The notes under the pieces are model-generated. The model made no database searches and was not told where the DNA came from. It saw nothing but the letters and a program-made list of their open reading frames with translations. A stretch of DNA of 23,090 bases from Patescibacteria group bacterium (GTDB lineage: Bacteria; Patescibacteriota; Gracilibacteria; Absconditabacterales; Absconditicoccaceae): NCBI GenBank assembly GCA_017992195.1, contig JAGOPC010000014.1, positions 1 to 23,090 of the forward strand, written 5' to 3'. Below, one piece after another: positions 1 to 21,567 of this stretch (position 1 is the first letter of the stretch; every line of letters begins with the position of its first letter). Position numbers and translations under genes: made by a program.

Positions 1-1600
1 TTACATAAATTCTAATGCTACGAGTTTCACCTGCGTTAAGATTTCCGATATTCCATGTCAGAGTCTGACCTACCACTGTTGTAGGAGTCGGCACTGCCGA
101 TACGTATGTAAGATCTGCAGGTAATGTATCAGTCACAACAACACCTGTTGCTGTTCCACTTCCTGAGTTACCGTATGTAAGTGTGTAGATTGCATTACCG
201 TTCGGAGTATATCCGCCGGTACTCGCAACGACGTCTTTATTCATATAGAGATTTGGCTTGCTTACACACTGTACCTGCCATGAGGCGCTGCTGTAATTGT
301 TAAGCATAGTGAGCTCATTGCTTATCGCTTCGGCGATACTTACGTTATTCCGGAGCGTTGAACAATCTGGCACAAGTCTTTGAATTCTCGCCGTGATAGT
401 GATCGATCCCCCTGAAAATGCAGTAAGATTTCCGATGTTGAATTTCACTGTTACTGTTCCATTTGGATTTGGGATAATAGCAGACGCAGGTATGGAAGCT
501 CAAACATAGTCGAGACCTGTACCAAGCGTATCAGTGATGACAACGCCTGTCGCCATACCTGAGCCGATATTGTTGAAAGTAAGCTTGTAATATACGAGAC
601 CGCTCTGTACATTGCTTCAAGTCACCGACTTCACAATTGCGAGATCAGGCTTGAGAGGTGCAAGAGGTAACTTACATGCTGCTGTACATGCGCTTCCTGG
701 CGTACCATTAGCAGAACCAAGGTCACACTGTTCTGACGCGATACCGATATTGAATGATCCGTTATCGACGATACCGTCACCACACCAATGTACTGTTCCG
801 TTAAGACACTCATAGGCAACGCGTCTTTCTGTCCCCCGGTCTATCTGTGCAGCACTTACTGGCGCAGAACTTATAGCATAGTCCGAACTCCATACCGGCT
901 TTGCGCTTGACCACGATGATTTGATGTACCATTTCGTAGAAACGGGACCTCCGTCACCGGCAGATACTGGATAAAGCCAGTAGTTATTAGTCTTTGTTCC
1001 TGCAGCTCTTGCAGAAAAAGGTCTATAAGCGATCTCATAGGCTAATTGAAATGTTCTTGATGCTGTACTGTTATTTTCAGGTGCAGAAAGGAGGAAAGCC
1101 GCGCTCTCGATCGCTCTTACCCACACATCTTTGGGTGCGATTTTTGACTGCGCATAGAAAACATTCTGGCTATGGATAGGCGTGCCTACCGAACCAACAA
1201 GCTTTGTCAAAATATTCTGACCTCCTGCCGGAAGATAGTATCTTACCTTTGTACCCGCATATCCGGCTTGTCTTCCTCCTATCAGATAGGCTGGAATAGT
1301 TCCTCCGTTCATTACAAAATTATCTCTTCCATAGTAATTTATACCAAGGTCCTTGATTCCGTCATTATTCTGGTCCATCGCAAGATAGTAGTCCTTATAG
1401 ACATTTGCCTGGGCGCATGAACCTGGAGTAAGCGCAGAAGTCGCAGTTTCCTGGTCGAAAAAGAGCATATTTGTCGAGCTTACGTACCCATTGAGGTAGT
1501 TGTAAGTAGGCCCGGGAATAAGAGCATATGCGGAGCTGCTCAAGACTGCTCCTCAGAGGATCAGTCATGCAGCGAGCACTATTTTCGGAAGGTATTTCAT
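1..1600 (-). CDS. Secreted cell-surface protein, partial (C-terminus lies beyond the window start): signal peptide, ~290-aa unassigned domain, Cys-rich CGDG repeat, two DUF11-type repeats
   Basis: Track ORF 617..1543 extends in both directions when TGA=Gly. Upstream it reaches ATG at 1598-1600 and gives MKYLPKIVLAAGLILGGAVLSSSAYA, a hydrophobic signal peptide with TGA at 1565-1567 and 1553-1555. Downstream it reads through TGA at 617-619 and 500-502 to the window edge with no in-frame TAA/TAG (codon frame ends at 2-4). Motifs: CLNGTVHWCGDGIVDNG...EQCDLG (Myxococcus-type Cys-rich repeat), then two repeats of the DUF11 'conserved repeat domain' type (...LTFNNIGSGMATGVVITDTL..., ...LTYGNSGSGTATGVVVTDTLPADLTYV...GQTLTWNIGNLNAGETRSIRIYV). 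Confidence 0.85.
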
Positions 1601-1631
1601 AGGCGGATATCGGGAAAAGTAAACTGCAAAA

Positions 1632-1659
1632 ATGATACTATTTTATTCATATTTGTCAA
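1632..1659 (-). promoter_or_regulatory. Candidate sigma70-type promoter for the surface-protein gene
   Basis: The minus strand reads TTGACA (1659-1654), a 16-nt spacer, then TATCAT (1637-1632). This sits about 30 nt upstream of the ATG at 1600, in the 65-nt gap after the TAA of the upstream gene. Motif match only. Confidence 0.35.
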
Positions 1660-1665
1660 TAGGTC

Positions 1666-4600
1666 TTATGGCTCTCGATCGCCATCATCACTCGGATCGT
1701 CACTTGGGTCGTCATTGATAACATTGATGTCTCCGTTATGACTCTCGGTATTAATACCATCTCCTGGATCTACAGGGTTAGAGTCAGGCTCCCCTTCTAC
1801 TTCCGGTTCCGGCTCTGGCTCTGGTGGTGGAGGCGGCGGCGGAGTATCCGGCTTTTTCTGCTTAGGAGCTTCTCCATACGCTGCTCCGAGACCGATCTTG
1901 AATGAGTTTGCAGAGTTTTCGCTTCCTGTACTTCCCATAGCAACATAGATGTTTCCAGGAGCTGGCTTTACTGTTTTCTTGCTATAGGTGATCTCAAGCT
2001 GACCAAACCCTTGTTTGTATCCTTCATTAGCACATGGCGCATTGAGGAATCTTTCGAAAGTATTCCCCGTCATAGTGATATCCATGCCATTGAGAGTAAT
2101 CTTCCCTGTCTTGATAAGATCGATCAGTTGTGCGTCGCTCATCTCTGCTTTTGCATCAAATTTCTTGATAGATTTTTGAATCATTTCTTTTTGTGCAGCG
2201 AAGTCAGGACTGTTCTTATAGATCTCCAGGAACTTATTGTGAACATCTTTTTCTTTACTTGCATCTTCTCTGAATTTGTCTCCTGCAACTGACTCTACGC
2301 CACCAAACCCAACAAAACCTGTCGTAGGTTTGAGTCCTTGTCTGTAGTATCCGACGATAGCTACAGCGTTGAGTTCTGGATGTGATGAGTACTTTTCTTT
2401 GCTTGTACCGAGCGTTTTTGCGTTATTGTAGATCTTATCGAAAGCATGCGGATCGATAACGATTCCACTATTCTTAAATGCCTCGACATGTCCTTTTCTG
2501 TTTTTCAAAAGTTCTCCAAGATTTTTTGATCATTTCATTCCTTCATGTGCGATGATCGCCTCAAGTTTTGCAGAGACAGAACCCGCCTGGATGAATGAGT
2601 TAACGATAGATCTCTTATGTTCAGTACTCTTTGCCCACATTGCATCAAAATCTTTCTGTGCAGCTGCGTCAAAAATGTGCAGATAGTTCTTATTGAGAGC
2701 ATCCATACTCTTTTTCATCTGATCAAAATTTGCTCCTCTCGTAGAAGTAGCGAACTCTCCAAATGCCTTATTGTATGCTATCTTTTGTTTGTTTGTCGGA
2801 TTTGTCATAGAGACAAATTTTTCATGAGCAGCCTTACTATGGATAAGTGTTTGTATCTTAGCTTCATCCTCATTTGGTAATTCAGGATGGAATTTAAACG
2901 AGAGCTTTTCAGTTTTCACCGTCGTTCTTTCGAGATTTCTTCTGTTTTTATATTCCTCCGGAGTTCCCTCAAGACGGTAGTTAACAGGCATCTTTGACAT
3001 TCTCTTATCATTGAGTTCATATCCGATATATACCTTTTGTTTATCCTTATATGCGCCGACCAATTTACCCGCCATGATATTCATACCCTTATTGAAGGTG
3101 ATTTCATGGTCAGTAATAGAAACGAGCGTTGGGTCTTTTATGAAAACATCAAGCTGGTCGTAGATAGGAGTATCAGTTTCAGTGTTTTGTGAGATAGTGA
3201 TAAGTTCGCCCTTTTCTTCCACAAGATATTTATTACCAATCCGGTATTCGATCTTCTCTGCGTATGAAAGCCCCTTTGTATCGGCATTGTCAAATCTTGC
3301 ATATCATTTGAAGGCTGACAACTGCTTCTCTTTTGCTTCCTTGTCGAATTTGTCCTCACGCTTTGTCGATCTTGTATAGATCTTGAGGCCAACAAACGCT
3401 TTGAGCACAGGAACGCTGAAAAGTATACCAACACCAAGCTCGAGAGAGAAGTCTACTTTACCTCTTGTATGGATGATAGCATCATTTTTCCATGCTGCTA
3501 CGAATGTAGAAGCGATATCCTGTAGCGAGTAACCCTGTTCAAGACCATAGAGTACGTGCTCTGCAACCTGATCGAGCGTCTTTTCATCTGCTTTCGTAAA
3601 TAGATCTCTGAGTTCTGCTTTCACTTCAGAAAGAGTCATATCAGCAGTGATGTTACCGAGTTCTTTCGCGAGGATTCCCTGGATAGACTCTGCTTGTCTG
3701 TTGATACCTGCTTCAAGATTGCTACCAACGTTGATACCTGCTCCGGCGTAACCAGGAGCTGCTTCAGCATAAACACCTGCATGCCATAATCTCTTAGGGG
3801 TGAGCGTCTTTTCAAGCGACTTCGCATTGAGGACCTGCTGAAGATCGACACGTGCAAATGGCACGATGAAATTTGCAACACCAACGTGCGCTGATCATTT
3901 TGTATTTTTCCCAAATTCTACATCACCGTTAAATCCTACGACGAAACCTGGCATACCATTACTACCAACTCCAACTCCGACGAAGAGATGATCTATATTG
4001 ATACCCGCTCCGATACCAGCTCCGGTAGCGCGAGGCGTATTCATATATCCTGCTGCGATTCCTGCAACGATCTGAGAACGAAGCTTTCTTTGGACATCCT
4101 GCGTTGCTGCCGGATCAAGTGAAAGCTCGCTTGGAAGCTCATCGATCACATGTTTTACTTTTTCATCAATCTGTCTTCCATATCTTGCATCGATCTCGTT
4201 CTTATAATCTTCGAGACTCTCTCCTGCTTTATTATTAGTTAACCACTCCTGAAAACTGCTCACCGTCATATATGGAAGAGCTTTCACCAACATGCTTCTG
4301 ATAAGTCCAGCTTTTTCCTCGTCAGCGAGTACCGCATTGAGCTCTTTCACATTATGCCGCTCAGGGAAACTATCTCCCATCTCTCTTGCAGACGGCAGAT
4401 CAGACAGCTTATCGTAAAGTGCTTCTGCAAATACATCTCTTCCCATCATTTTCGATGTAATATCGATCATTTTCTTCAACTGATGCTCAGTGAAGACAAC
4501 TTCTTTTTGATTCTCAACCGTTTTTCTCTGCGCTCTCTTTTCAACTCTATCATCTTTCTTCTCCTTCCTGTTTACATATTTCGCTTCATCCCAAAGCCCA

Positions 4601-5130
4601 GCTTCGACCAATGTCTGCTTCACATTATTACCCCACTCTCTTGCTTCTGATCTACTTGCACCCGTACGCTCCATATACATCTCTTCAAGACCCTTCTTGA
4701 ATTTACTTCCTTTGAGGATTCCTTTGTTGATGAAATTAATAACCATATCCTGGTCGGCACGAGAAAGGTCTGTCTCATAGATCTGCGCGAAAATATCTTT
4801 CTGATCCTGATCGATAGTCTCCTGCTTGTCACGAAGACGATCATATCTTGACTGTTTTCTTTCTCTTACCTCCGTACCACCATACCCGTTATTATCGAGG
4901 TCGGCCAAAATACCGGACTGGAGGCGTTGCACCTCGTTTTGTGTCTCGTCAACAACGTCCTTCTCCTCTTTCTGTTTACGCGTCTCGGCGTCAGAAAGTT
5001 CTTTCTTGAGTTTAGCTTCCTCTTCCTTGCTTGGAGCTCTTGTATCAAGGTCGTGGAGATCTTTACTCTCCTGTTTTGTAGCGGCGTCAGAAACATCTTT
5101 TCTGCGTCCTTCTATACCTTTTGGTGCCAT
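1666..5130 (-). CDS. Giant orphan protein, 1154 aa, no recognisable family: charged coiled-coil-like N-terminus, Gly-zipper-like segments, poly-Pro/acidic C-terminal tail
   Basis: Track ORFs 3895..5130, 3304..3864, 2530..3222 and 1666..2508 are all in one frame. They are separated only by single in-frame TGA codons at 3895-3897, 3304-3306 and 2530-2532. The 'starts' of the downstream pieces are internal GTG/TTG codons. ATG at 5128-5130 is the first start after an upstream in-frame TAG. The true stop is TAA at 1666-1668. There is no N-terminal signal peptide (MAPKGIEGRRKDVSD...). Gly-rich hydrophobic stretches include ATGAGIGAGINIDHLFVGVGVGSNGMPGFVVGFNG and APGYAGAGINVGSNLEAGI. The tail reads PDTPPPPPPPEPEPEPEVEGEPDSNPVDPGD...DDPSDDPSDDGDREP. 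Confidence 0.85.
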
Positions 5131-5333: not shown

Positions 5334-6740
5334 TTATTTTCCTCCCAACACCACTCTTGCCGTCGAGATAAGTACCTGTAGATCCATCGCAAGAGACCAG
5401 TGTTGTATATAATAGAGTTCGAGCTGAGCTTCCTGCTCAAAAGGCAGTTTATCACGACCAAAGACCTGTGCGTAGCCGGTCAGTCCAGGCTTTGCCACCA
5501 GAAGTCTTTTCATCCATGGTTCGTATTTCGCAACCTCCGGCGGCAGATGTGGTCTTGGTCATACAAGAGACATTGTGCCGATAAACACATTGAAGAGTTG
5601 CGGTAGTTCATCGAGCGATGTTTTACGAAGAATCTTTCCGATCTTCGTCACGCGCGGATCGTCTCCAATTTTTGGAAGGATATGGTCTCTTGTATTTTGT
5701 GTCGCAATAAGTTCGTCGTAGACCTTCTGCGCTTTCTTTCAGCCGTAATTTTTACCGGTACTTAAATGCGTGTACATACTGCGAAATTTAATGAACCGAA
5801 ACGGAACGCCCTTCCTCCCCACTCTTTGCTGAATATAGAATACTGGACCTTTGCTATCGATTTTAATGAGCAATGCGATCAGCAGAAAAACTGGCGACAG
5901 CACGATGATCGCCAGCAGCGAACAGACGAAATCGCAGAATCTCTTCAGCACTCTCAGCCAACCGTCCAGCGGCGAGCTGCTGTATGCCCGTCCCACCACA
6001 GGCCCAATGCGCTGTGGCTGTGCGATCAGATCCTCCAGAAAATAACTTTCCGGGATATGATAAAAAGTTTTTCCATGGTTACGAGCATGGTCAGCGATCG
6101 TCTGCAACAGATTCGTACTATATGATCCTACGGCGATGACAATATCGACTGCTCCCCGGCGACGATTTCCATCGTACTCTTTCTCCTGCACAGGGATCAG
6201 CTCATAGATCTTATATCCGGAAATATCCTGACTGAACTGTTCGTACTGAGCTTGGGTCTTATAGATCACCACTATCTTATAAGGATGTTCTTTCTCCAAG
6301 TAGCTATTGATATTATTCCAGAAAATATCAAAGATACTCAGCGCGATAAATCCGCACAGCGCTGACCAAAGGATCAAAAATCTCGAAATCCCATCAGTGA
6401 AGATAAATCCATTACCGAACAATGCAAGGAATGTCATACAAACCAGCCATCGAACCCGGGCCAATAAGAACTTCCTATAGTAGCCATGCAGCGGTTTAAA
6501 CAGATCGTAGACCCCCAAGAGAAAACATGCACCTACAAAAATAGCAATCGCCGAAACCGCAAATCGGATCGTCTCTGTCAGATTGAACGCAGGTATCGTG
6601 AGCTGTAACCACGGAATCAGATCGGTCGACTGGCGCACCGTGTATCCTATCCGAAATATAACCAGCAGCAACACTATATGAAATAACGGCCTCGCAAGAC
6701 GCAAAATCATCTTATACGACGAGGCAACATTCTTTTTCAT
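5334..6740 (-). CDS. Polyprenyl glycosylphosphotransferase (bacterial sugar transferase, WbaP/EpsB-like), 468 aa
   Basis: Track ORF 5739..6812 stops at TGA 5739-5741. Reading on in frame gives the catalytic C-terminal domain ...[34 protein letters not shown][G]PRPHLPPE...[10 protein letters not shown]..., with the conserved LVGPRP glycine encoded by TGA at 5559-5561. The real stop is TAA at 5334-5336. Several N-terminal TM helices are present. The likely start is ATG 6738-6740 ([10 protein letters not shown]...) rather than the track start at 6812. Confidence 0.9.
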
Positions 6741-6843: not shown

Positions 6844-7245
6844 ATGTACCTACTTCTTACCACCTACCCGAATAAACCAAGAGAGCTCAAGAAATTTATT
6901 CTCTGACTGGTAAAAAGCTGAATGGCCGCGTGCGTCCAGAAAATAAACTACGTCAAATCATTTTACATGCGAGAAGGCGCCCTCAAACAGGAAGAAGAAA
7001 AAATCCTGCTAATCAAATGTTCGAAAGACAGCAAAGAAAAAATTGAGGCCTACTTCGTTAAGAGTCATCCATATGAGATACCTGAAATGTTATGGATGCA
7101 TCCTGAAGACGTAAACGACGCTTATAAGCAGTGGGTGAAAGGCTCTCATACAGCCAATAAGAAGACCGACAAAGCATCCGACAAGAAGCACGAGAAATCA
7201 GCTAACAAGAAAGTTGAAAAAAAGATCGACAAAAAATCAGAATAA
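6844..7245 (+). CDS. cutA: CutA1 divalent-cation tolerance protein with a Lys-rich C-terminal tail, 133 aa
   Basis: Track ORF 6922..7245 extends upstream through TGA at 6919-6921 and 6904-6906 to ATG 6844. The product MYLLLTTYPNKPRELKKFILGLVKSGMAACVQKINYVKSFYMREG...LLIKC...HPYEIPEM matches the CutA pattern (LAACV, S.Y.W.G, E..L.IKT, HPYE.PE). The roughly 35-aa tail reads TANKKTDKASDKKHEKSANKKVEKKIDKKSE. Confidence 0.8.
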
Positions 7246-14651: not shown

Positions 14652-14708
14652 GTAATATCTTTTTAAAATTATTCATTTAAAGTTTCTTTTTTTACGCTCC
14701 CCGCTAGG

Positions 14709-14742
14709 GGTTACTTTTTGGTCATCGCCTCAAAAAGTAACC
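14709..14742. repeat. Perfect 12-bp inverted repeat (hairpin) in non-coding DNA
   Basis: GGTTACTTTTTG (14709-14720), a 10-nt loop GTCATCGCCT, then CAAAAAGTAACC (14731-14742), which is the exact reverse complement. No U-tract follows on either strand, so it is not a canonical terminator. Confidence 0.6.
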
Positions 14743-14918
14743 AAAAACGGCTAGGCAAATTCAGCATTACGACATATTATTATTCACGATTCACTACGAC
14801 GCATCTCCACCCCCATTGCATGGGACCCGTGTCGACGCTAACACCAGCGTGTATATTACGCAACACTAGAAGAGTCATAAATGAATTTGCCCCCATACAC
14901 CGAGAAAATTCTGCATTT

Positions 14919-14949
14919 AAAAAAATCCCTTCCGATGCGTCGGGAGAGA
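14919..14949 (-). terminator. Intrinsic terminator of the rplM-rpsI / ribosomal operon
   Basis: The minus strand reads TCTCTCCCGA-CGCA-TCGGAAGGGA followed by TTTTTTT. This is a 10-bp stem with one mismatch and one G:U pair, about 80 nt downstream of the rpsI stop. Confidence 0.6.
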
Positions 14950-15030
14950 TCTTTCATAAGGGCATAAGAAATTGTGTATTCGTATTAACCCTACTATATG
15001 ATAATGAATAATGTTTGCAAGGATTAACGA

Positions 15031-15465
15031 TTAACGCTTTGACCACTTTGGTCTCTTTCTCGCTTTCTTGAGACCTGGTTTCATACGCTCCTTTGATCTC
15101 GGATCTCTTTTCAGAAGTCCAAAAGGTTTAAGCATAGCTCTGAGTTCAGGATCCCATTCGATAAGAGCTCTTGCAAATGCAAGTTTGATAGCGTCAGACT
15201 GACCCGCGATACCACCTGATGTGATCTTGATCTCAGCGTCGAACTTATTGACGTTATCTTTACCTGTCGCTACGATAGGGAACATAGCCTGCTCATACAT
15301 ATGATGATTCCCACCAAAGTACTCTTTGAGAGTGATAGTTCCCTCCCCCTTCACAAGAGTATAATTACCTTTACCCTGTGGGAAAAGTTTCACTACTGCA
15401 GTAGCTTCTTTTCTTCTTCCTACAGCATACTTATAGTTGCTTGTTTTCTTCGCTGCTGCTGTCAT
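15031..15465 (-). CDS. rpsI: 30S ribosomal protein S9
   Basis: The 144-aa ORF contains GRRKEATA...GGGIAGQSDAIKLAFARAL and the C-terminus ...ARKRPKWSKR. Confidence 0.97.
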   Translation of the reverse strand: MTAAAKKTSNYKYAVGRRKEATAVVKLFPQGKGNYTLVKGEGTITLKEYFGGNHHMYEQAMFPIVATGKDNVNKFDAEIKITSGGIAGQSDAIKLAFARALIEWDPELRAMLKPFGLLKRDPRSKERMKPGLKKARKRPKWSKR

Positions 15466-15466
15466 A

Positions 15467-15922
15467 TTAGTCTATAAGAGTAGGATGTAAATTATCATAT
15501 TTATCAGTGCTTGTCGTGAAGAGTTTCAGTCTCTTCATGCGGCTATCTCTGAGCTTGTTCTTTGGAAGCATACCTCTTACCGCAAATCGAAGCGGATCAG
15601 TAGGTTTCTTTTGCAACATCGTCTGGAGGTTCTTTGATTTAAGATTACCTTTCCATCCGCTGTATGAGTAATACATCTTCTGCATAAGCTTCTTTCCTGT
15701 TACATTGATCTTGTCCGCGTTTTCAACAACGATAAACGCTCCTGCATCCCGGAAGTCAGTATAATTAGGAGTATTTTTACCCATAAGAAGGTCTGCACAG
15801 ATCACTGCGAGTTTTCCAAGAGTCTTACCTTGGGCATTGATCTTATACCACTTTCTATGCTTTTCGAGCTCTTCTGGCTTCGTATAAAGCGTTGTATTGA
15901 GGTCCTTTTTCGTAAATGTCAT
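15467..15922 (-). CDS. rplM: 50S ribosomal protein L13
   Basis: The 151-aa ORF contains WYKINAQGKTLGKLA...VVENADKINVTGKK...YSGWKGNLK. Its stop is 1 nt from the rpsI start. Confidence 0.97.
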   Translation of the reverse strand: MTFTKKDLNTTLYTKPEELEKHRKWYKINAQGKTLGKLAVICADLLMGKNTPNYTDFRDAGAFIVVENADKINVTGKKLMQKMYYSYSGWKGNLKSKNLQTMLQKKPTDPLRFAVRGMLPKNKLRDSRMKRLKLFTTSTDKYDNLHPTLID

Positions 15923-15967
15923 TTTACAATAAATTTATAAATTATAAATTTTCAATTGCTGCTTCTA

Positions 15968-16360
15968 CTAGATAAGTCTGAGAAGTATCTTCTCTGCACC
16001 GTCACCTTTTCTGTAACCGACCTTATAGTCAGCAACGTAACCGAACTTCTTTCCTTCGGCCTTATATTTAGGCATGAGTTCGTCGACAACCTTCTTACCC
16101 TCCGCTTCAGAGAAGATAGTTGACTTCACAATCCTGATAGCCTCTCTTCTGACATCTTTCTCATCAGCATACATATCGAATAGCCCTACGAGTCTTCAGA
16201 AAAACTTGTCAGCATATGACTTCATCACCTTTGCACGCTTGCTGGTTGTTGTCATCTCACCTGTTCTGATGAGATTCGTCAGCATCGTTCTGAGGAGATT
16301 CGATCTTGTCTGGTGCTCACCTGTAGTAAGTTCGATGAGCTTATTGTGCTTATGTCTCAT
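15968..16360 (-). CDS. rplQ: 50S ribosomal protein L17, 130 aa
   Basis: Track ORF 15968..16174 is only the C-terminal half. In-frame extension through TGA at 16196-16198 reaches ATG 16358-16360 and gives MRHKHNKLIELTTGEHQTRSNLLRTMLTNLIRTGEMTTTSKRAKVMKSYADKFF[G]RLV..., an L17-type N-terminus (MRH...TT..KAK). It sits in the expected position after rpoA. Confidence 0.9.
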
Positions 16361-16445
16361 TTTCTAAGTTGATGTATAAAGTTAAATAGTATATTAGTCA
16401 TAAGGTTCAACCCCTGCTCATTGCATTCGCTGGGTTTCTCCTTAA

Positions 16446-17441
16446 TTAACCCGCCAGTCCCTTACCGATATTTTGGAGAGACACAACGATCTCATCAATT
16501 GCTTTCTTACCGAGACCCTTCATAGAAAGAAGCTCTACTTTCCTCTTCTTCTCAAGATCTTCTACGTAAAGAATTGAGTTCTTGATCAATGCGTTTCTTG
16601 TTCTTTCACTGAGTGGAAGAGCGTCGATAGGCATAGTCTTGATGTTCATCTCTTCAGGAAGAATTGCTTTTTCCTCATGGAGATCTTCATACTCAACAAG
16701 CATATTGCTGTCGATGTAGACCTCGTCGAAGACGAAGAGTTTTGCATATGATGCCAACACCTCTCCCGCGAAAGACATAAACTCCTTTGGTGAGATAGTT
16801 GGGTATTTTGATTGTACTTCTATGATAAGATTATCTTTGAGACCTCCCTGGAAGTCGTCGATAACTTCTTCCACTTCATATTTAACATATTCAACAGCCT
16901 TGAAATCATTGTCAACGAGCAGCAAATGGATATCACTTTCACCCATCTTCTCCTCCCTTCTTCTGAGCCGGTCAACACTGTAGTAGCCGTATCCTTTTTC
17001 GACACGGATATCGAAGATAAGTTCTGTTCCCGGGTCTGATATTTCACACAGGTACGCATCCTCATCGAGAAGCTCGATACCTGAAGGCAACTTAAGATCT
17101 TTTGATGTATAGACACGAGCTCCCTTAAATTTCTGAGACACCCACTGCAATTGTTCTACCTTATCAGAGATAGAGAAACGAAGATTTTTAAAGTTCTGCA
17201 TCACGTCGATCACTGACTCTTTCACACCATCGATAACATGATACTCGTGTGGTACACCTTTAATTTTCATAGCGGTGATACCTCCTCCAACATTGTAACC
17301 AAGGATGACTCTTCTCATCGCATTTCCGATCGAGTGTCCAAATCCTCTTGGAAGGTAATTCACTTCAAATCTCATAGTTGTCTCATTGACTGTGTGTGCT
17401 TTGATCTTAGGCGCACCAATATATTTTTGTATATCCAACAT
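16446..17441 (-). CDS. rpoA: DNA-directed RNA polymerase subunit alpha
   Basis: The 331-aa ORF has an N-terminal domain (...PRGFGHSIGNAMRRVIL...) and a C-terminal domain (...PLSERTRNALIKNSILYVEDL). It lies between rpsD and rplQ and has no TGA codons. Confidence 0.97.
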   Translation of the reverse strand: MLDIQKYIGAPKIKAHTVNETTMRFEVNYLPRGFGHSIGNAMRRVILGYNVGGGITAMKIKGVPHEYHVIDGVKESVIDVMQNFKNLRFSISDKVEQLQWVSQKFKGARVYTSKDLKLPSGIELLDEDAYLCEISDPGTELIFDIRVEKGYGYYSVDRLRRREEKMGESDIHLLLVDNDFKAVEYVKYEVEEVIDDFQGGLKDNLIIEVQSKYPTISPKEFMSFAGEVLASYAKLFVFDEVYIDSNMLVEYEDLHEEKAILPEEMNIKTMPIDALPLSERTRNALIKNSILYVEDLEKKRKVELLSMKGLGKKAIDEIVVSLQNIGKGLAG

Positions 17442-17496
17442 CCGGCAGACGGGACAAAATATAAAAGATTATAGTAAGTGGTTAATTACGTAATAA

Positions 17497-18114
17497 CTAT
17501 GCTCTCGCGTAGAATTCAATCACCTTAAGGACGTCAGCTGGAAGATGAAGTTCTGATACGTCAGGAAGGTCAAGCACTTCAACAGATTTGTCTCCTTTAT
17601 TTACCTTAAGCCATGCAAGTTTGCTATCTGCGCTGTCAAATGCTGACTGATAGAGCGCACCACCTGCAACTTTGTCCCTTACTTTAATAATGTCGCCCGC
17701 TTCTACATAGTACGAAGGCACATTATGTTTCTGTCCATTGAGAGAAAAGTGACCATGAGATACCATCTGTCTTGCTTGCATGATAGTCTTTGCAAGTCCA
17801 GATCTAAGGATCACGCTGTCCATTCTTCTTTCAAGAAACTGCATCACTGCCTTATCATGGTCTGTACCCTTATTCTTCGCATACTTAAGAGCGACACTAG
17901 AAACAAGCTTTCTGAACTGCTTCTCAGACATGAAGTACATTCTCTTGAGTACCTGCTTATTTCTAAGCATTTTACCGTACTCAGAAAGTCTTGGCATGTT
18001 TGCTCCATGCTGTCCAGGGACTCCTCTTCTCTTTTTTACGTCGTATTTAGGTACGCCGAAAAGATTGATTCCCTCTCTTCTTGCTAACTTAAACTTAGGT
18101 CCTGTATATTTCAT
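17497..18114 (-). CDS. rpsD: 30S ribosomal protein S4
   Basis: The track ORF starts at ATG 18132 (MESLLHMKYTGPK...). The internal ATG at 18112-18114 gives the canonical S4 N-terminus MKYTGPKFKLARREG, so it is preferred. The S4 domain is near the C-terminus. Confidence 0.93.
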   Translation of the reverse strand: MKYTGPKFKLARREGINLFGVPKYDVKKRRGVPGQHGANMPRLSEYGKMLRNKQVLKRMYFMSEKQFRKLVSSVALKYAKNKGTDHDKAVMQFLERRMDSVILRSGLAKTIMQARQMVSHGHFSLNGQKHNVPSYYVEAGDIIKVRDKVAGGALYQSAFDSADSKLAWLKVNKGDKSVEVLDLPDVSELHLPADVLKVIEFYARA

Positions 18115-18162
18115 GTGTAATAACGATTCCATTATAAAGAGTAAAATAGGTGCGTTTATTCC

Positions 18163-18576
18163 TTACATTCTCTTTGGTCTATATCCTTTTGTTCCTCCGT
18201 GTTGCAAAGCAGTTTCTTCTTTGATCCACAAGATATCGATAAGACCGAGATCGTTGATAGCCTTGAAGACACCATCTCTTCCCATACCTGCTCCTCTGAA
18301 GACAATACCGACCTGTTTAAGTCCTCTCTCGTCTCTTGCCTCTTTCATCACATTCTTCGTGAGCATCTCAGCTGCGTAAGGAGTATTTTCCTTTGCTCCT
18401 TTAAATCCCGCGCTTCCCGTACCGCTTCCTGAAATTTTATTTCCCTTTTCATCGGTAAGAGTGACGATCGTATTGTTCTCTGTTGTTTTCACATAGAGAA
18501 TACCCGAAGCGATCTTCGTATTTTTCTTTTTCTTCGCCTTTTCTTTGGCCGGCGCTGCTGCTGGTGTTGTTGCCAT
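18163..18576 (-). CDS. rpsK: 30S ribosomal protein S11
   Basis: The 137-aa ORF contains ...NNTIVTLTDEKGN...GSAGFKGAKENTPYAA...VFRGAGMGRD...TKGYRPKR. Confidence 0.97.
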   Translation of the reverse strand: MATTPAAAPAKEKAKKKKNTKIASGILYVKTTENNTIVTLTDEKGNKISGSGTGSAGFKGAKENTPYAAEMLTKNVMKEARDERGLKQVGIVFRGAGMGRDGVFKAINDLGLIDILWIKEETALQHGGTKGYRPKRM

Positions 18577-18639
18577 GCAAGTGTAATATATAAACGTAAT
18601 AAATAGATCTAGTATAGATTACTCATAAGTGATGAGCAA

Positions 18640-19014
18640 TTACTTCTTAAGAACTGGTCTCACCTTTGCCCTTCCGAGAAGTTTCTTCGCAGTACGACCA
18701 TTTTTTCTTGTCGCCTGTCCTCTTACAGGAAGACCCATATTGTGTCTCATGCCTCTGTAGCACTTGATTTCCTTGAGTCTCTTGATGAAAGCATTCACTT
18801 CACGTCTGAGATCGTTCTCTACGAGATACTCTTTCAGTTCATCGGTGATTCTCTTTTCATCCTCTTCGGTGATCTCTTTCACTTTTTTGAAAGGATCGAT
18901 ACCAAGTTTCTCCAAAATAGTCTTTGATCTTGCTCTTCCTACACCGTAAACGGCAGTAAGACCAATCCAAATATTTTTCTGTTCTGGAATGACGTGTCCT
19001 TGAATTCTAAGCAT
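18640..19014 (-). CDS. rpsM: 30S ribosomal protein S13
   Basis: The 124-aa ORF contains LTAVYGVGRARSK...YRGMRHNMGLPVRGQATRKNGRT. Confidence 0.97.
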   Translation of the reverse strand: MLRIQGHVIPEQKNIWIGLTAVYGVGRARSKTILEKLGIDPFKKVKEITEEDEKRITDELKEYLVENDLRREVNAFIKRLKEIKCYRGMRHNMGLPVRGQATRKNGRTAKKLLGRAKVRPVLKK

Positions 19015-19050
19015 TTGCTGATGATCTATGAATAATAAATAATAGTGAAA

Positions 19051-19164
19051 CTACCCTTGTCTCTGCTTATGTTTCACATTTTCACAAATAATGAGAATTT
19101 TTCCTTTTCTCTTAATAGTCTTACACTTATTACAGATTTCTTTTACTGACGATCTTACTTTCAT
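19051..19164 (-). CDS. rpmJ: 50S ribosomal protein L36
   Basis: Not in the track because it is under 60 aa. The minus-strand ORF from ATG 19162-19164 to TAG 19051-19053 gives [37 protein letters not shown], the canonical L36 sequence pattern. It sits in the expected position between infA and rpsM. Confidence 0.9.
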
Positions 19165-19191: not shown

Positions 19192-19524
19192 TTATGCGGC
19201 CTTCTTGATAGTGTTGTCCGGAGTTAACGGGATAGTAGTAGTTTTTGGCGCCTCTTCCGGGAGCGGAGTTCATGGTAGTGGCATGCCTGGTCTTGGTTTA
19301 TCTTTACTGTGTCTGTAGATAATGCGTCACTGCGTCGTGTCATACATGCTGATTTCGACGTCCACTTTGTCGCCCGGCAGTATACCGATACGATGGAGCT
19401 TCATCTTTCATCCCAATCCCGCTTTGATATCCATGTTGAGTTCAGGGATTTTGACGAGATAGCCTCCAGGTCAAAGATTTTGGACTACTTCACCGAGCAT
19501 TACAAGACCCGTTTCCTTAGCCAT
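19192..19524 (-). CDS. infA: Translation initiation factor IF-1 with a ~35-aa Pro-rich C-terminal extension, 110 aa
   Basis: Not in the track. The minus-strand frame from ATG 19522-19524 gives MAKETGLVMLGEVVQNL[G]PGGYLVKIPELNMDIKAGLG[G]KMKLHRIGILPGDKVDVEISMYDTTQ[G]RIIYRHSKDKPRPGMPLP[G]TPLPEEAPKTTTIPLTPDNTIKKAA and ends at TAA 19192-19194. TGA codons lie at 19471-73, 19408-10, 19327-29 and 19270-72. Two of them fall on the conserved IF-1 glycines (GKM and GRI.YR). The start overlaps the rplU stop by 8 nt (ATGGCTAA). Confidence 0.9.
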
Positions 19525-20138: not shown

Positions 20139-20173
20139 GATAATGTATGATATGTAGAAGATTAAAAAACAAT

Positions 20174-20260
20174 TGGTGCCTGGAACCGGAATCGAACCGG
20201 TACGGGGTTAAATCCGGCGGATTTTAAGTCCGCTGCGTCTACCAATTCCGCCATCCAGGC
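20174..20260 (-). tRNA. tRNA-Leu (anticodon UAA), class II with long variable arm, CCA encoded
   Basis: The reverse complement is GCCTGGATGGCGGAATTGGTAGACGCAGCGGACTTAAAATCCGCCGGATTTAACCCCGTACCGGTTCGATTCCGGTTCCAGGCACCA. The anticodon stem is GCGGA/TCCGC with loop CT-TAA-AA. The T-arm is ACCGG-TTCGATT-CCGGT. The 7-bp acceptor stem pairs fully. Confidence 0.9.
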
Positions 20261-20279
20261 ATGGACATTGGTAATCTCA

Positions 20280-20627
20280 TTAGCTGGTAACCTGTTCGTA
20301 GATTTTCGTAAACACTTCCGGATATGCAACCGCGATATTTGAAAGCACCTTTCTATTTAAGATAATACCCTTTGCACTCATATGACCCATAAACTTGCTA
20401 TATGTCATACCTTTTGAGGTCAAAGCAGCATTGATTCTTTCGATCCAGAGTTGTCTCATGTCACGCTTCAGGAGTTTTCTCGAAGTGTACGCATGTTGTC
20501 CCTGCTTCACGAGCGCAAGTCTTACCTGCTTATAGAGAGTTCCTCTTCCGAGCTTAAACCCCTTTGCACGATCGATATATTTTTTATGTCTTGCATGTCT
20601 TTGCAAACCGTTTGATACTCTTACCAT
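20280..20627 (-). CDS. rplT: 50S ribosomal protein L20
   Basis: The 115-aa ORF contains MVRVSNGLQRHARHKKYIDRAKGFKLGR...RDMRQLWIERINAA... Confidence 0.97.
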   Translation of the reverse strand: MVRVSNGLQRHARHKKYIDRAKGFKLGRGTLYKQVRLALVKQGQHAYTSRKLLKRDMRQLWIERINAALTSKGMTYSKFMGHMSAKGIILNRKVLSNIAVAYPEVFTKIYEQVTS

Positions 20628-20629
20628 TG

Positions 20630-20833
20630 TTACCTTACGCTATGAGGAAGTAAAGTTTTGATTCTGCTCTTCTGCGTCGAAGAAAGCGTTCTACCTGTCT
20701 TACCTTGTTTTGTTGCTCTCTTTTTGTTAGTGAGCAAATGTCTTTTTTCTGCCTTATCGTGAACGTACTTATTTGTCTTCGTCACTCTGATTCTCTTGGC
20801 AGTTCCTTTGTGTGTCTTTAGCTTGCCAGCCAT
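20630..20833 (-). CDS. rpmI: 50S ribosomal protein L35
   Basis: The 67-aa ORF contains MAGKLKTHKGTAKRIRVTKTNKY...H.L..K. It occupies the infC-rpmI-rplT operon position. Confidence 0.95.
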   Translation of the reverse strand: MAGKLKTHKGTAKRIRVTKTNKYVHDKAEKRHLLTNKKRATKQGKTGRTLSSTQKSRIKTLLPHSVR

Positions 20834-20892
20834 AGTGGTTATCTACCCTTAGGGAATAAAATCATACTGAATCCGTTATTTTCATCTTTCAC

Positions 20893-21567
20893 TCATTGAG
20901 ATCTACCGAACTCTTTAAGTGCTTCCTCGATATAATGAAGTCTTTCAGCAACCTTATCTGCATATATCCTCTCTCTACCCTTCAATCTCACCGCAAATCT
21001 TACACTATATCCATCTTCCAAGAACTCTATCGATTTTTTCATTTTCAATTGTAAATCATTATCTCCGATCGTGTATCCAAACTTCACCTCTTTCATCCCC
21101 TTCGACTTCTGCGTCTTTTTCTTCTCTTTATCGTCTTTCTGCTTATTGTACATATATTTTCCATAATCTACCATCTTTGCAGTACATACCATATCCACCG
21201 GATTGTATGCGATCTGTACGAGGTCTAATCCCTGTTCACCAGCCATACGAAGCGCTTCATCTCTTGCATATGTCCCGAGAATCTGACCTTCAGCGTCCAC
21301 TATAATGATACGCGGAGCTTTAATCATCTCATTGGTAAACACTTGCCTTTGATCTCTGTTCGGCGCTCAGACCGGACGCGGTCCTTGCGGACGAGCACCC
21401 ATTGGTGCACCAGCAGGACGAGCTCCTGTAGCTCACTGAGGACGGTTTGGAAACGATCCTGGCGGCCTTGGTCATCCCGGTCTCGGTCACGATCCTTGCG
21501 GACGCGCCCCCTGCGGTCTATTTTGTCCAAACGATGGACGCGGAGATGTTGATCTTCCTTCTGACAT
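20893..21567 (-). CDS. infC: Translation initiation factor IF-3 with a ~75-aa Pro/Arg/Gly/Gln-rich N-terminal extension, 224 aa
   Basis: Track ORF 20893..21342 starts at an internal GTG. The same frame stays open upstream through TGA at 21367-69, 21433-35, 21472-74 and 21487-89 to ATG 21565-21567. This gives MSEGRSTSPRPSFGQNRPQGARPQGSGPRPGGPRPPGSFPNRPQGATGARPAGAPMGARPQGPRPVGAPNRDQRQVFTNEMIKAPRIIIVD... The segment APNR....EMIKAPRIIIVD resembles the usual IF-3 N-terminus (..RPNRIN.EIRA.EVRL.). That places the conserved protein upstream of the GTG. The exact start is uncertain; ATG 21400-21402 is an alternative. Confidence 0.8.

What the first reader, a model, noticed from the sequence alone, without database searches (positions are those of the whole stretch)
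1..21567. UGA is decoded as glycine across the window (translation table 25, Gracilibacteria/Absconditabacteria-type genome)
Seen directly: every break between adjacent same-frame track ORFs is a single TGA, never TAA, TAG or a frameshift. By hand count, about 49 in-frame TGAs occur in 12 genes.

Where the family is recognisable, TGA falls on conserved glycines:
- PepD: GADNG, GGHSG and HAGLECG (8768, 9056, 9698, 9710)
- IF-1: GKM and GRI (19408, 19327)
- sugar transferase: LVGPRP (5559)

Trp is still encoded by TGG throughout, which argues against table 4 (UGA=Trp). All re-joined genes terminate in TAA or TAG.

Established knowledge: UGA=Gly is the described code of Gracilibacteria (BD1-5) and Absconditabacteria (SR1). 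The recoding is therefore not new in itself. It does decide every other annotation here, and standard-code pipelines would shred this contig.
Basis: partly seen in the sequence, partly recalled or inferred. Interest (0 to 1): 0.8.

Follow-up and report, generated by a model that had tools for sequence, protein, structure and literature searches.

The report
UGA=Gly plus CGA/CGG=Trp recoded genome
[quoted passage not shown] It also reads the arginine codons CGA and CGG as tryptophan, so neither the public annotation (standard code) nor table 25 translates it correctly.

Summary
If only TAA and TAG count as stops, the window resolves into about 27 full-length genes.

TGA is glycine, not tryptophan:
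- In PepD, 9 of 15 TGA columns are Gly-dominant in 75 standard-code homologs. None shows Trp. The log-odds are +25 bits for Gly and -81 for Trp.
- Across 80 relatives, 2,327 in-frame TGA codons align with window GGN 1,851 times and with TGG never.
- A 74-nt tRNA(UCA) with glycine identity elements is conserved in relatives. It also occurs on a contig from the same sequencing runs as the window.

CGA and CGG (43 codons in native genes, against 45 TGG) behave as Trp codons. They sit on invariant Trp in PepD, exchange with TGG in relatives, and almost never exchange with AGA. This matches the Absconditabacterales code predicted by Codetta in 2021, so table 25 is insufficient.

The public record annotates this contig under the standard code, which splits rplQ into two "hypothetical proteins".

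One gene is unexplained. The desaturase at the right end follows standard-code usage.

The recoding is a known kind. This genome is a new, heavily CGA/CGG-using member of it.

The parts
8453..9868 (+). pepD (Xaa-His dipeptidase, M20 family), 471 aa. It has 15 in-frame TGA, at 8549, 8687, 8768, 8867, 9056, 9146, 9179, 9359, 9431, 9563, 9698, 9710, 9731, 9737 and 9758. It also has CGA at 8546-8548 and CGG at 9602-9604.
   Evidence: PDB 2qyv and 3mru match at E=1e-79 and 1e-77 over residues 7-465. Nine TGA columns are Gly-dominant in 75 standard-code homologs, and four of them are 75/75 Gly. Trp never appears. Log-odds are G +24.9 and W -81.2 bits. The CGA and CGG columns are Trp in 57/75 and 75/75 homologs.
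10592..11302 (-). RluA-family pseudouridine synthase, 236 aa, with 6 TGA and 8 CGA/CGG.
   Evidence: Pfam PF00849. TGA at aa 66 (HRLDxxTSG motif), aa 99 and aa 187 (TGxxHQIR motif) is Gly in 15/15 distant homologs. CGA/CGG columns 14, 54 and 220 are Tyr in distant homologs and Trp (or standard-table Arg) in lineage proteins; column 48 is Phe in lineage proteins.
5334..6740 (-). Bacterial sugar (phosphoglycosyl) transferase, WbaP-like. It has TGA at 5739-5741 and 5559-5561, and 7 CGA/CGG.
   Evidence: PF02397, E=9e-61. The motif MSLV[TGA]PRP aligns to MSLVGPRP of WbaP structures. Six of the seven CGA/CGG columns carry only TGG, CGA, CGG or TAT in L006 and L007; column 83 is AGA in L006 and TGG in L007.
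19192..19524 (-). infA (IF-1) with a C-terminal tail. TGA at 19471-19473, 19408-19410, 19327-19329 and 19270-19272.
   Evidence: PDB IF-1 hits. The G[TGA]KM column is Gly in all three printed PDB alignments. In 45 relatives the two core columns carry only GGN or TGA (33+12 and 18+27). The tail sequence downstream of the last TGA is conserved with L006.
15968..16360 (-). rplQ (L17), with one TGA at 16196-16198. The public record splits it into two "hypothetical proteins".
   Evidence: PF01196. The exact fragments are MBP6911028.1 (54 aa) and MBP6911027.1 (68 aa). The TGA column is not conserved: Ser/Ala in relatives and Thr in PDB.
20839..21567 (-). infC (IF-3) with a Gly/Pro/Arg-rich N-terminal extension, 5 TGA.
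   Evidence: IF3_N and IF3_C domains; PDB hit 8jsg. Four TGA lie in RPQG-type repeats, where NRPQ[TGA] parallels NRPQG (read directly from the sequence).
7272..8357 (+). 361-aa membrane protein with no clear family, 4 TGA and 9 CGA/CGG.
   Evidence: Eight of the nine CGA/CGG columns are TGG, CGA or CGG in both L006 and L007. TGA columns are TGA or GGA there.
11324..13531 (-). Secreted beta-propeller protein, 735 aa, 3 TGA and 4 CGA/CGG.
   Evidence: PF09826, E=3e-95. Relatives carry GGN at the TGA columns and mostly TGG, CGA or Tyr/Phe codons at the CGA/CGG columns, with a few others.
2..5130 (-). Two large surface or secreted proteins. The first is a DUF11-repeat protein (2-1642) that runs off the left end, with 4 TGA. 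The second is a 1154-aa protein with no family (1666-5130), with 3 TGA.
   Evidence: ORF calling; PF01345 DUF11; no Pfam match for the 1154-aa protein.
6844..7245 (+). cutA1-like gene, with 2 TGA (6904, 6919) and 1 CGA.
   Evidence: PF03091, E=5e-22. Relatives carry TGA or GGN at the TGA columns and TGG, CGA or CGG at the CGA column.
13640..19164 (-). A run of genes (plus an unannotated gap at 14225-15030) with almost no TGA: adk, rpsI, rplM, rplQ, rpoA, rpsD, rpsK, rpsM and rpmJ (19051-19164). Only rplQ has one. CGG occurs in adk (aa 115), rplM (aa 58) and rpoA (aa 158), and CGA in rplM (aa 112).
   Evidence: Pfam; rpmJ read from the sequence. rplM aa 58 CGG corresponds in relatives to TGG 48, CGA 18 and CGG 7. 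rpoA aa 158 corresponds to Tyr/Phe codons.
20174..21808 (-). tRNA-Leu(UAA) 20174-20260, rplT, rpmI, infC, tRNA-Glu(CUC) 21605-21681 and tRNA-Arg(UCU) 21736-21808. In relatives this tRNA cluster continues with tRNA-Ala, tRNA-Tyr and tRNA(UCA). Here it does not.
   Evidence: ARAGORN and Rfam. Synteny in relatives. L086 extends the contig 9.1 kb past the right end and holds no tRNA.
22212..23090 (+). Membrane fatty-acid desaturase, running off the right end. It is code-discordant: no TGA, 11 TGG, and CGG at 22653-22655 on a near-invariant Arg.
   Evidence: PF00487. Against 150 homologs, CGG aa 150 is Arg in 143/150 and CGG aa 25 is Arg in 89/150. Orthologs in ten genomes have 0 TGA among 221 Gly codons, and 38 TGG with 0 CGA/CGG at Trp-conserved columns. 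The invariant-Arg column uses CGG, AGG, CGA, CGC and CGT.

Best explanation
The window is chromosomal DNA of an uncultured Absconditabacterales (SR1)-type bacterium of the Candidate Phyla Radiation. Its genetic code differs from the standard bacterial code at three codons.

- UGA is a glycine codon. It is inferred to be read by a dedicated 74-nt tRNA(UCA) carrying glycine identity elements, and termination uses only UAA and UAG.
- CGA and CGG are tryptophan codons alongside UGG. Published work predicts that tRNA(UCG) and tRNA(CCG) with tryptophan identity read them.

Shown here:
- the sense reading of UGA
- its glycine meaning
- the tryptophan-like meaning of CGA and CGG in native genes
- the lineage
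- the glycine-type tRNA(UCA) in relatives and on a contig from the same sequencing runs

Inferred, not shown: loss of release factor 2, the Trp-type tRNAs for CGA/CGG, and that the co-occurring tRNA(UCA) contig belongs to this same genome.

Because NCBI files the MAG under "Patescibacteria group bacterium", it was annotated with table 11. Its genes are therefore truncated or split at TGA, and Trp is mistranslated as Arg at CGA and CGG.
For: **UGA is sense.** With TGA read through, ORFs are continuous and cover their families from end to end. All genes end in TAA or TAG.

**UGA is Gly.**
- In PepD, 9 of 15 TGA columns are Gly-dominant in 75 standard-code homologs, with no Trp. Log-odds are G +24.9 and W -81.2 bits, p=8e-8.
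- PDB alignments put Gly at GADNG, GGHSG and HAGLECG, IF-1 GKM, RluA HRLDxxTSG and TGxxHQ, and WbaP MSLVGPRP.
- At the DNA level, independent of any database translation, the 2,327 in-frame TGA codons of 80 relatives align to window GGN 1,851 times, window TGA 74 times and window TGG 0 times. None of 818 window-TGG cells is TGA. The numbers are identical whether tblastn uses table 4, 11 or 25.

**tRNA.**
- A tRNA(UCA) occurs in 46 loci. In the 41 from the 80 rpoA loci there are 17 distinct sequences. All are 74 nt with U73, G1:C72 and C2:G71, and 16 of 17 have G3:C70. The acceptor stem shows compensatory changes. These are the criteria used for Gly identity in PMC8629427.
- The identical tRNA lies on L092/L093, from the same two sequencing runs that hold window-identical contigs.
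- It scores 53.7 bits against Rfam tRNA and is not tRNA-Sec.

**CGA/CGG is Trp.**
- PepD columns are Trp in 57/75 and 75/75 homologs.
- Relatives carry TGG, CGA/CGG or aromatic codons at window CGA/CGG columns, and CGA/CGG at window TGG columns (87+38). Window AGA columns show CGA once and CGG never in 6,963 cells.
- Literature: PMC8629427, PMC13092985.

**Lineage.** rpoA relatives are titled SR1, Absconditabacterales, Gracilibacteria or Peribacteria. The best named PepD, RluA and T2SSF hits agree.
Against: - No tRNA(UCA), tRNA(UCG/CCG) or prfB locus lies in the window.
- The 9.1 kb beyond the right end, where relatives keep the tRNA(UCA), holds no tRNA at all.
- L092 is assigned to this organism only by co-occurrence, GC content and codon usage.
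- Several TGA columns are not conserved Gly (L17 aa 55, IF-3 aa 255, PepD aa 33, 303 and 371), so each of them alone says nothing.
- The desaturase gene carries CGG and CGA at Arg-conserved columns, contrary to CGA/CGG being Trp.
- GC content (0.43) and CGA/CGG usage (41 and 34 per 10,000 codons) exceed the ranges published for the reassigned clade.
- There is no protein-level evidence.
Confidence: 0.9

Rival explanations
1. Plain translation table 25, the reader's reading: UGA is Gly and every other codon is standard, so CGA and CGG are Arg.
For: The UGA=Gly evidence is the same as above. In the desaturase gene CGG and CGA sit on Arg/Lys-type columns. One sugar-transferase CGG aligns to Lys in WbaP.
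Against: - PepD CGG sits on a 75/75 invariant Trp and PepD CGA on a 57/75 Trp column.
- In native genes CGA/CGG exchange with TGG, with each other, and with Tyr/Phe/His codons.
- They almost never exchange with AGA or CGY. Relatives show AGA/AGG in only 8 cells at window CGA/CGG columns, mostly in the desaturase, and window AGA columns show CGA once and CGG never in 6,963 cells.
Confidence: 0.05
2. Translation table 4 (Mycoplasma/Spiroplasma type): UGA is Trp.
For: Thirty-nine of the 120 PepD database homologs show Trp at the TGA columns. Two are named "uncultured bacterium (gcode 4)".
Against: Those 39 proteins are Trp-rich and Gly-poor (W 6-38, G 3-35, against W 5.4 and G 39.5 in the outgroup). 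They are relatives that gene callers translated with table 4. Standard-code homologs never have Trp at any TGA column. In relatives TGA never aligns with window TGG (0 of 818 cells). The tRNA(UCA) has U73 and G1-C2-G3, not the G73 of tRNA-Trp.
Confidence: 0.01
3. TGA is still a stop. The in-frame TGA codons would then be pseudogene lesions, sequencing or assembly errors, programmed readthrough or selenocysteine.
For: The public annotation treats them as stops. ARAGORN labels the tRNA(UCA) "tRNA-SeC" purely from its anticodon.
Against: - Fifty TGA codons lie in 12 genes, essential ones included (infA, infC, rplQ).
- They are concentrated on conserved Gly columns (p=8e-8).
- The same sequence appears in independent assemblies at 99.1-100% identity.
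- Protein sequence is conserved downstream of the TGA codons.
- The tRNA is 74 nt with a normal variable loop and matches the general Rfam tRNA model.
Confidence: 0.01
4. Decoding is ambiguous or gene-dependent. CGA/CGG would be read as both Trp and Arg, or some resident genes would evolve under standard-code rules. In that case no single table describes this genome.
For: Ten desaturase genes of the family, seven from confirmed lineage members, have 0 TGA among 221 Gly codons. They have 38 TGG and 0 CGA/CGG at Trp-conserved columns. Their invariant Arg column uses CGG, AGG, CGA, CGC and CGT like standard Arg synonyms. dS is saturated and dN is 0.18 between the window and L006.
Against: It rests on one gene family. 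Native genes put CGA/CGG on invariant Trp, which ambiguous decoding would damage. Repeated import from standard-code donors next to a tRNA cluster could give the same picture. Three of the ten contigs are too short to assign to the lineage.
Confidence: 0.12

Closest known systems
Absconditabacteria/Absconditabacterales code as predicted by Codetta (Shulgina & Eddy 2021, PMC8629427; restated in PMC13092985): UGA=Gly plus CGA and CGG=Trp
   Same: All three reassignments are seen here. UGA sits at Gly columns. CGA and CGG sit at Trp columns and exchange with TGG. The tRNA(UCA) meets the paper's Gly criteria (G1:C72, C2:G71, G3:C70, U73). The relatives are Absconditabacterales/SR1 MAGs.
   Different: GC content is 0.43, against 0.26-0.38 reported for the CGA/CGG-reassigned clades. 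CGA and CGG occur at 41 and 34 per 10,000 codons and supply about 49% of Trp codons in native genes. [quoted passage not shown] This genome is therefore at or beyond the most advanced stage they describe. The Trp-type tRNA(UCG/CCG) could not be examined. One resident gene, the desaturase, does not follow the code.
NCBI translation table 25 (Candidate Division SR1 and Gracilibacteria code; Campbell 2013 and Rinke 2013 as cited in PMC8629427; proteomic support in a BD1-5 bacterium, PMC4032931)
   Same: UGA is Gly, UGG is Trp, and stops are UAA and UAG only.
   Different: Table 25 keeps CGA and CGG as Arg, and that feature fails here. To my knowledge NCBI has no table combining UGA=Gly with CGA/CGG=Trp. 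I did not check this with a tool.
Translation table 4 (Mycoplasmatales/Entomoplasmatales and several insect endosymbionts): UGA=Trp
   Same: UGA is a sense codon, and ORFs shatter under table 11.
   Different: The amino acid is Gly, not Trp. The tRNA(UCA) is Gly-type (U73). Many public metagenome proteins of this lineage were nevertheless called with table 4 and carry false Trp residues.

Membership tests
NCBI table 25 (SR1/Gracilibacteria code) | UGA is a sense codon: ORFs are continuous through TGA and end at TAA or TAG | tested here: met
   Fifty TGA codons lie in 12 recognisable genes. There are full-length Pfam and PDB matches, and all stops are TAA or TAG.
NCBI table 25 (SR1/Gracilibacteria code) | UGA columns carry Gly in homologs from standard-code organisms | tested here: met
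   PepD: 9 of 15 columns Gly-dominant, G +24.9 bits, W -81.2. PDB motifs in IF-1, RluA and WbaP agree. RluA distant homologs are 15/15 Gly at three columns.
NCBI table 25 (SR1/Gracilibacteria code) | UGA exchanges with GGN and not with UGG among relatives | tested here: met
   Relatives' TGA codons align to window GGN 1,851 times, window TGA 74 times and window TGG 0 times.
NCBI table 25 (SR1/Gracilibacteria code) | The genome encodes tRNA(UCA) with Gly identity (G1:C72, C2:G71, G3:C70, U73) | tested here: inconclusive
   It is absent from the window and from 9.1 kb beyond its right end. It is present with all elements in 46 related loci and on L092/L093 from the same sequencing runs. The link to this genome is not proven.
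NCBI table 25 (SR1/Gracilibacteria code) | Release factor 2 (prfB) is absent | not testable with these tools
   Only 23 kb plus about 13 kb of the same population is in hand, and no whole-genome scan was possible.
NCBI table 25 (SR1/Gracilibacteria code) | All other codons keep their standard meaning | tested here: not met
   CGA and CGG behave as Trp codons.
Absconditabacterales code (UGA=Gly, CGA/CGG=Trp) | CGA and CGG fall on Trp-conserved columns of standard-code homologs | tested here: met
   PepD aa 32 is Trp in 57/75 and aa 384 in 75/75. RluA CGA/CGG columns are aromatic. Few columns could be tested against outgroups.
Absconditabacterales code (UGA=Gly, CGA/CGG=Trp) | CGA/CGG exchange with UGG and not with AGR/CGY within the lineage | tested here: met
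   The exception is the desaturase gene.
Absconditabacterales code (UGA=Gly, CGA/CGG=Trp) | tRNA(UCG)/tRNA(CCG) with Trp identity (G73, no A20) | not testable with these tools
   No such tRNA occurs in the 1.28 Mb of loci held.
Absconditabacterales code (UGA=Gly, CGA/CGG=Trp) | Placement among Absconditabacterales/SR1 | tested here: met
   The closest rpoA relatives (57-94%) are titled SR1, Absconditabacterales, Absconditicoccaceae, Gracilibacteria or Peribacteria, and synteny is shared. This rests on similarity, not on a tree.
Absconditabacterales code (UGA=Gly, CGA/CGG=Trp) | Low GC (0.26-0.38) with rare CGA/CGG, as described in PMC8629427 | tested here: not met
   GC is 0.40-0.46. CGA and CGG occur at 41 and 34 per 10,000 codons. 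This is a descriptive feature, not a defining one.
Table 4 (UGA=Trp) | UGA columns carry Trp, and tRNA(UCA) is of Trp type | tested here: not met
   No Trp appears in standard-code homologs. The tRNA has U73 and G1-C2-G3.
Selenocysteine recoding | tRNA-Sec (about 90 nt, long variable arm), with rare UGA at Cys/Sec columns | tested here: not met
   The tRNA(UCA) is 74 nt and matches Rfam tRNA RF00005. There are 50 UGA codons, and they sit at Gly columns.

The most novel reading that the evidence does not exclude
Inside a genome that reads UGA as Gly and CGA/CGG as Trp, one long-resident gene family keeps evolving under standard-code rules. It is the membrane desaturase beside the tRNA cluster. 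It never uses TGA for Gly, never uses CGA/CGG for Trp, and uses CGA/CGG as Arg synonyms at an invariant Arg. If real, either CGA/CGG decoding is ambiguous or condition-dependent, or there is a steady flow of this gene from standard-code bacteria, perhaps the hosts of these epibionts, into a fixed chromosomal site.
Probability: 0.2. Interest if true: 0.75.

Novelty: new member of a known kind. Interest (0 to 1): 0.4.

Why it matters
**Practical.** The public record of this MAG is annotated with the wrong code, and so probably are many other records filed as "Patescibacteria group bacterium" or "uncultured bacterium". Its proteins are fragments. Re-annotating with table 25 would still place Arg where about half of all Trp residues belong.

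**Databases.** Large metagenomic protein collections hold many table-4 translations of this lineage. These put false Trp at Gly positions, and a naive tally of homolog residues would seem to support UGA=Trp.

**Scientific.**
- The codon-level comparison with 80 relatives confirms the computationally predicted CGA/CGG-to-Trp reassignment without relying on any database translation.
- It shows a genome in which the reassigned codons have rebounded to about half of Trp usage at 43% GC.
- The code-discordant desaturase gives a concrete place to test for ambiguous decoding or gene flow across codes.

Tried and rejected
- **Table 4, selenocysteine, pseudogenes.** Rejected.
- **tRNA(UCA) in the window.** None found.
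- **tRNA(UCA) beyond the right end.** Synteny in relatives predicted it about 1.6 kb past the end. I extended the contig with L086, which is 100% identical over 1,328 bp and adds 9.1 kb. It holds no tRNA, so the synteny is broken in this organism.
- **Finding the tRNA another way.** I located it through the T2SSF neighbour seen in L006/L007 and reached L092/L093 from the same runs. L092 shares no sequence with L086, so the link to the window's genome is still unproven.
- **The search of protein representatives.** I used the unmasked desaturase instead.
- **RluA homolog search.** It returned mostly lineage proteins. Only 15 distant sequences served as an outgroup.
- **Hanke et al. 2014.** The text has nothing on tRNA identity or RF2.
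- **Uninformative columns.** The L17 and IF-3 C-domain TGA columns are not conserved.
- **Names for desaturase homologs.** Cluster look-ups of the closest homologs gave no names.
- **dN/dS for the desaturase.** dS is saturated, so the ratio is undefined.
- **Composition.** GC and GC3 do not mark the desaturase as foreign.
- **tRNA(UCG/CCG), tRNA-Trp, tRNA-Gly(NCC).** None found in any locus held.
- **Rfam.** Nothing in the window apart from the three tRNAs.

Full report
**1. The observation**

With table 11 the window breaks into 78 ORFs of 60 aa or more. When only TAA and TAG count as stops, it resolves into a compact, non-overlapping gene set in which neighbouring same-frame fragments are joined by single TGA codons.

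- I count 54 in-frame TGA codons in all such ORFs. Fifty of them lie in 12 genes with a recognisable product or conserved relatives.
- Every rejoined gene ends in TAA or TAG.
- The rejoined proteins match their families from end to end:
  - PepD residues 7-465 against PDB 2qyv (E=1e-79)
  - Bac_transf (E=9e-61), Beta_propel (E=3e-95), PseudoU_synth_2 and CutA1
  - L17, IF-1, IF3_N and IF3_C

**2. UGA means glycine**

I replaced the TGA positions of PepD with X and collected 120 homologs.

- Thirty-nine of them carry Trp at some TGA column. These proteins are abnormal in composition (W 6-38 and G 3-35, against means of 5.4 W and 39.5 G in the rest). Two are named "uncultured bacterium (gcode 4)". 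They are relatives whose genes were called with table 4.
- Five further proteins are NCBI table-25 translations from Gracilibacteria, SR1 or Absconditabacteria. One more (P0070) was set aside by the same indel filter.
- In the remaining 75 standard-code homologs, nine of the 15 TGA columns are Gly-dominant. Columns 106, 202, 416 and 436 are 75/75 Gly, column 243 is 74/75, column 139 is 71/75, column 420 is 70/75, and columns 327 and 429 are 54/75. No column has a single Trp.
- A Codetta-style log-odds sum gives G +24.9 bits, the runner-up D -37.2, and W -81.2. Only 31 of 471 columns are Gly-dominant, so nine of 15 has p=8e-8.

Alignments to solved structures agree:
- GADNG, GGHSG and HAGLECG in PepD
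- GKM in IF-1
- HRLDxxTSG and TGxxHQ in the pseudouridine synthase (15/15 Gly in distant homologs)
- MSLVGPRP in WbaP

Some TGA columns are simply not conserved (L17 aa 55, IF-3 aa 255) and say nothing either way.

**3. A test that does not depend on anyone's translation**

A scan of one genome per GTDB species with RpoA returned 80 related loci. I aligned the window's proteins to them with tblastn and read the subject codons.

- The relatives' 2,327 in-frame TGA codons fall on window GGN 1,851 times, on window TGA 74 times, and on window TGG never.
- Of 818 cells at window TGG columns, 500 are TGG and none is TGA.
- The counts are identical when tblastn uses table 4, 11 or 25.
- At the two conserved IF-1 columns, all 45 relatives have GGN or TGA.
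- The IF-1 tail downstream of the window's last TGA (…TIPLTPDNTIKKAA) is conserved with L006 (…TIPLAPDPxLRKAA), so translation continues through it.

**4. The decoding tRNA**

The window has only tRNA-Leu(UAA), tRNA-Glu(CUC) and tRNA-Arg(UCU). In relatives the Arg-Glu cluster is preceded by tRNA-Ala, tRNA-Tyr and a 74-nt tRNA with anticodon UCA (46 copies).

- In the 41 copies in the rpoA loci there are 17 distinct sequences. All have U73, G1:C72 and C2:G71, and 16 of 17 have G3:C70. The acceptor stem shows compensatory changes.
- These are exactly the criteria Shulgina & Eddy used to call tRNA(UCA) a glycine acceptor (PMC8629427).
- It matches the general Rfam tRNA model at 53.7 bits and is too short for tRNA-Sec.

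By synteny it should lie about 1.6 kb beyond the window's right end. A contig that overlaps the window at 100% identity (L086) extends 9.1 kb further and has no tRNA. The arrangement is therefore broken in this organism.

I then searched with the T2SSF gene that neighbours the tRNA in L006 and L007. This led to L092 and L093, from SRR11088379 and SRR11088391. The same two runs hold window-identical contigs L089 and L001.

- L092 and L093 carry T2SSE, T2SSF and a 255-aa gene; on L092 these are followed by tRNA(UCA) and tRNA-Tyr (L093 ends inside the tRNA).
- The tRNA is identical to that of L006 and L007.
- GC is 0.43 and codon usage is rich in CGA/CGG, like the window.
- It is probably the same population, but this is not proven.
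- RF2 could not be examined.

**5.

Shulgina & Eddy predicted that Absconditabacteria also read CGA and CGG as tryptophan. A 2026 survey takes this as given for Absconditabacterales.

The window has 29 CGA and 24 CGG against 58 TGG. In confident native genes the figures are 43 against 45.

- Both such codons in PepD lie on Trp columns of the 75 standard-code homologs: aa 32 in 57/75 and aa 384 in 75/75.
- At window CGA/CGG columns the relatives have TGG 162 times, CGA or CGG 97 times, many Tyr, Phe or His codons, and AGA 6 times.
- At window TGG columns they have CGA 87 times and CGG 38 times.
- At 6,963 window AGA cells they have CGA once and CGG never.
- Gene by gene against L006 and L007, the sugar transferase, the 361-aa protein, CutA, the DcrB-like protein, RluA and the beta-propeller mostly show TGG, CGA and CGG interchanging freely.

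So table 25 repairs the stops but leaves about half of all Trp residues translated as Arg.

Compared with the published description, this genome is GC-richer (0.43) and uses CGA/CGG more (41 and 34 per 10,000 codons). Those figures are for all ORFs in a 23-kb window, so they are only roughly comparable with the paper's Pfam-aligned counts.

**6. Identity and public annotation**

The window's proteins are exact matches to NCBI proteins MBP6911023-037 of a "Patescibacteria group bacterium". The locus tags are KBC03_05580-05620 and the contig is 23,092 bp.

- rplQ is deposited as two "hypothetical proteins" that end and begin at the TGA, so the record was annotated with table 11.
- Other assemblies split infC and rplQ too.
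- The closest genomes are OZ246420.1 (RpoA 94%) and JAUIDC010000001.1 (92%).
- Named relatives are SR1, Absconditabacterales or Absconditicoccaceae. Several pipeline-labelled "Peribacteria" also appear.

**7. An unexplained exception**

The desaturase at 22212-23090 is complete in L086. It has no TGA and 11 TGG. Its CGG at aa 150 lies on an Arg present in 143 of 150 homologs, and its CGG at aa 25 on an Arg-dominant column. L006 has AGG, AGA, AGA and AAA where the window has CGG, CGG, CGA and CGA.

I collected ten genes of this family with DNA. Seven come from sure lineage members.

- 0 TGA among 221 Gly codons, although the native TGA share is 10-24% in the same genomes.
- 38 TGG and 0 CGA/CGG at Trp-conserved columns.
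- The invariant-Arg column reads CGG, AGG, CGA, AGG, CGA, CGC, CGC, CGT, CGC, CGA.

This is the pattern of synonymous drift under the standard code. The gene is under purifying selection (dN 0.18, with dS saturated, between the window and L006). It is syntenic in L006 and L094. Its junction with the tRNA cluster is supported by four independent assemblies, and its GC content is unremarkable.

I cannot explain it. Possible causes are repeated import from standard-code donors into a site next to tRNA genes, tolerance of Trp at that position, or non-uniform decoding. Code-11-compatible phages of this lineage are on record (PMC10746230), but they would not explain CGA/CGG at Arg sites.

**8. Verdict**

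The right model is the Absconditabacterales code, with CGA and CGG as Trp.

This is a new, mis-annotated member of a known kind. Its use of the reassigned Arg codons is unusually heavy, and one code-discordant gene deserves follow-up.

Noticed in passing
window 22212-23090 (+); L086 450-1514; orthologs in L006, L007, L009, L094, L096, L097: The desaturase gene family follows standard-code usage inside recoded genomes. It has 0 TGA among 221 Gly codons and no CGA/CGG at Trp-conserved columns (38 TGG). CGA/CGG serve as Arg synonyms at a near-invariant Arg, which in the window is CGG at 22653-22655. The gene is under purifying selection and is syntenic. No explanation was found.
   Followed up: partly
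window 15968-16360 (-), and the contig as a whole: The public NCBI record (Patescibacteria group bacterium, KBC03_ locus tags) was annotated with table 11. rplQ is split into MBP6911028 (54 aa) and MBP6911027 (68 aa), both "hypothetical", and rpoA is also named "hypothetical protein". Logan and NCBI metagenome assemblies of the same population split infC and rplQ too; ATP synthase genes are fragmented on the extension contig L086.
   Followed up: yes
PepD homologs P0001-P0103; RluA homologs: About a third of the closest database homologs are table-4 translations of relatives. They carry false Trp at Gly positions (up to 38 W with as few as 3 G in a protein), and lineage proteins carry false Arg at Trp positions. 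A naive tally of homolog residues at TGA columns would show 12-25% Trp.
   Followed up: yes
relatives L006-L085, about 0.3-3 kb upstream of tRNA-Arg(UCU)/tRNA-Glu(CUC); expected beyond window 23090: In relatives the tRNA-Gly(UCA) gene sits in a conserved cluster: tRNA(UCA), then Tyr and Ala (in either order), then Arg, then Glu (Glu before Arg in L082), next to infC-rpmI-rplT. In the window's organism the cluster is split. L086 shows no tRNA for 9.1 kb past the desaturase. The tRNA(UCA)-Tyr part appears on L092 beside T2SSE/T2SSF genes.
   Followed up: yes
window 13640-21567 against 5334-13531: TGA use is very uneven. The share of Gly codons is 0% in adk, rpoA and every ribosomal-protein gene except rplQ (one TGA), and 39-50% in pepD, rluA and cutA. 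Relatives use TGA at 16% of window-Gly columns, most of them in ribosomal-protein and rpoA genes, so this organism avoids it in highly expressed genes more than they do.
   Followed up: partly
window 19192-19290 and 21280-21567 (-): IF-1 has a C-terminal tail of about 40 aa, rich in Pro and Thr. Tails are common in the lineage, with a median of 11 aa and a maximum of 50 aa. IF-3 has an N-terminal extension of about 75 aa rich in Gly, Pro and Arg, built of RPQG-like repeats and containing four TGA. The upstream part of the IF-3 ORF overlaps tRNA-Glu, so the real start is at or after 21567.
   Followed up: partly
window 14225-15030: An 800-bp stretch between adk and rpsI has no recognised gene. 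The ORF at 14251-14676 (141 aa, 3 TGA) has no Pfam match and an unprotein-like sequence. Rfam finds nothing at the gathering threshold.
   Followed up: no
window 19875-20138 (-): A conserved 87-aa basic protein with no Pfam family lies between rplU and tRNA-Leu. It is present in 67 of 80 relatives. Its CGA at aa 44 corresponds in relatives to TGG 41 times and CGA 21 times.
   Followed up: no
window 1666-5130 (-); L086 1565-6499 (-): Two very large proteins have no family match. The first is 1154 aa, with a Gly-rich central region and a tail of PPPPPPP followed by acidic residues. The second is 1644 aa, with 23 TGA and 18 CGA/CGG. They may be surface or host-interaction proteins of an epibiont.
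   Followed up: no
L020-L085 record titles: Many MAGs in this clade are titled "uncultured Candidatus Peribacteria bacterium", although they carry tRNA(UCA) and in-frame TGA like SR1/Absconditabacterales. This is probably a taxonomy-mapping artefact of the depositing pipeline.
   Followed up: no
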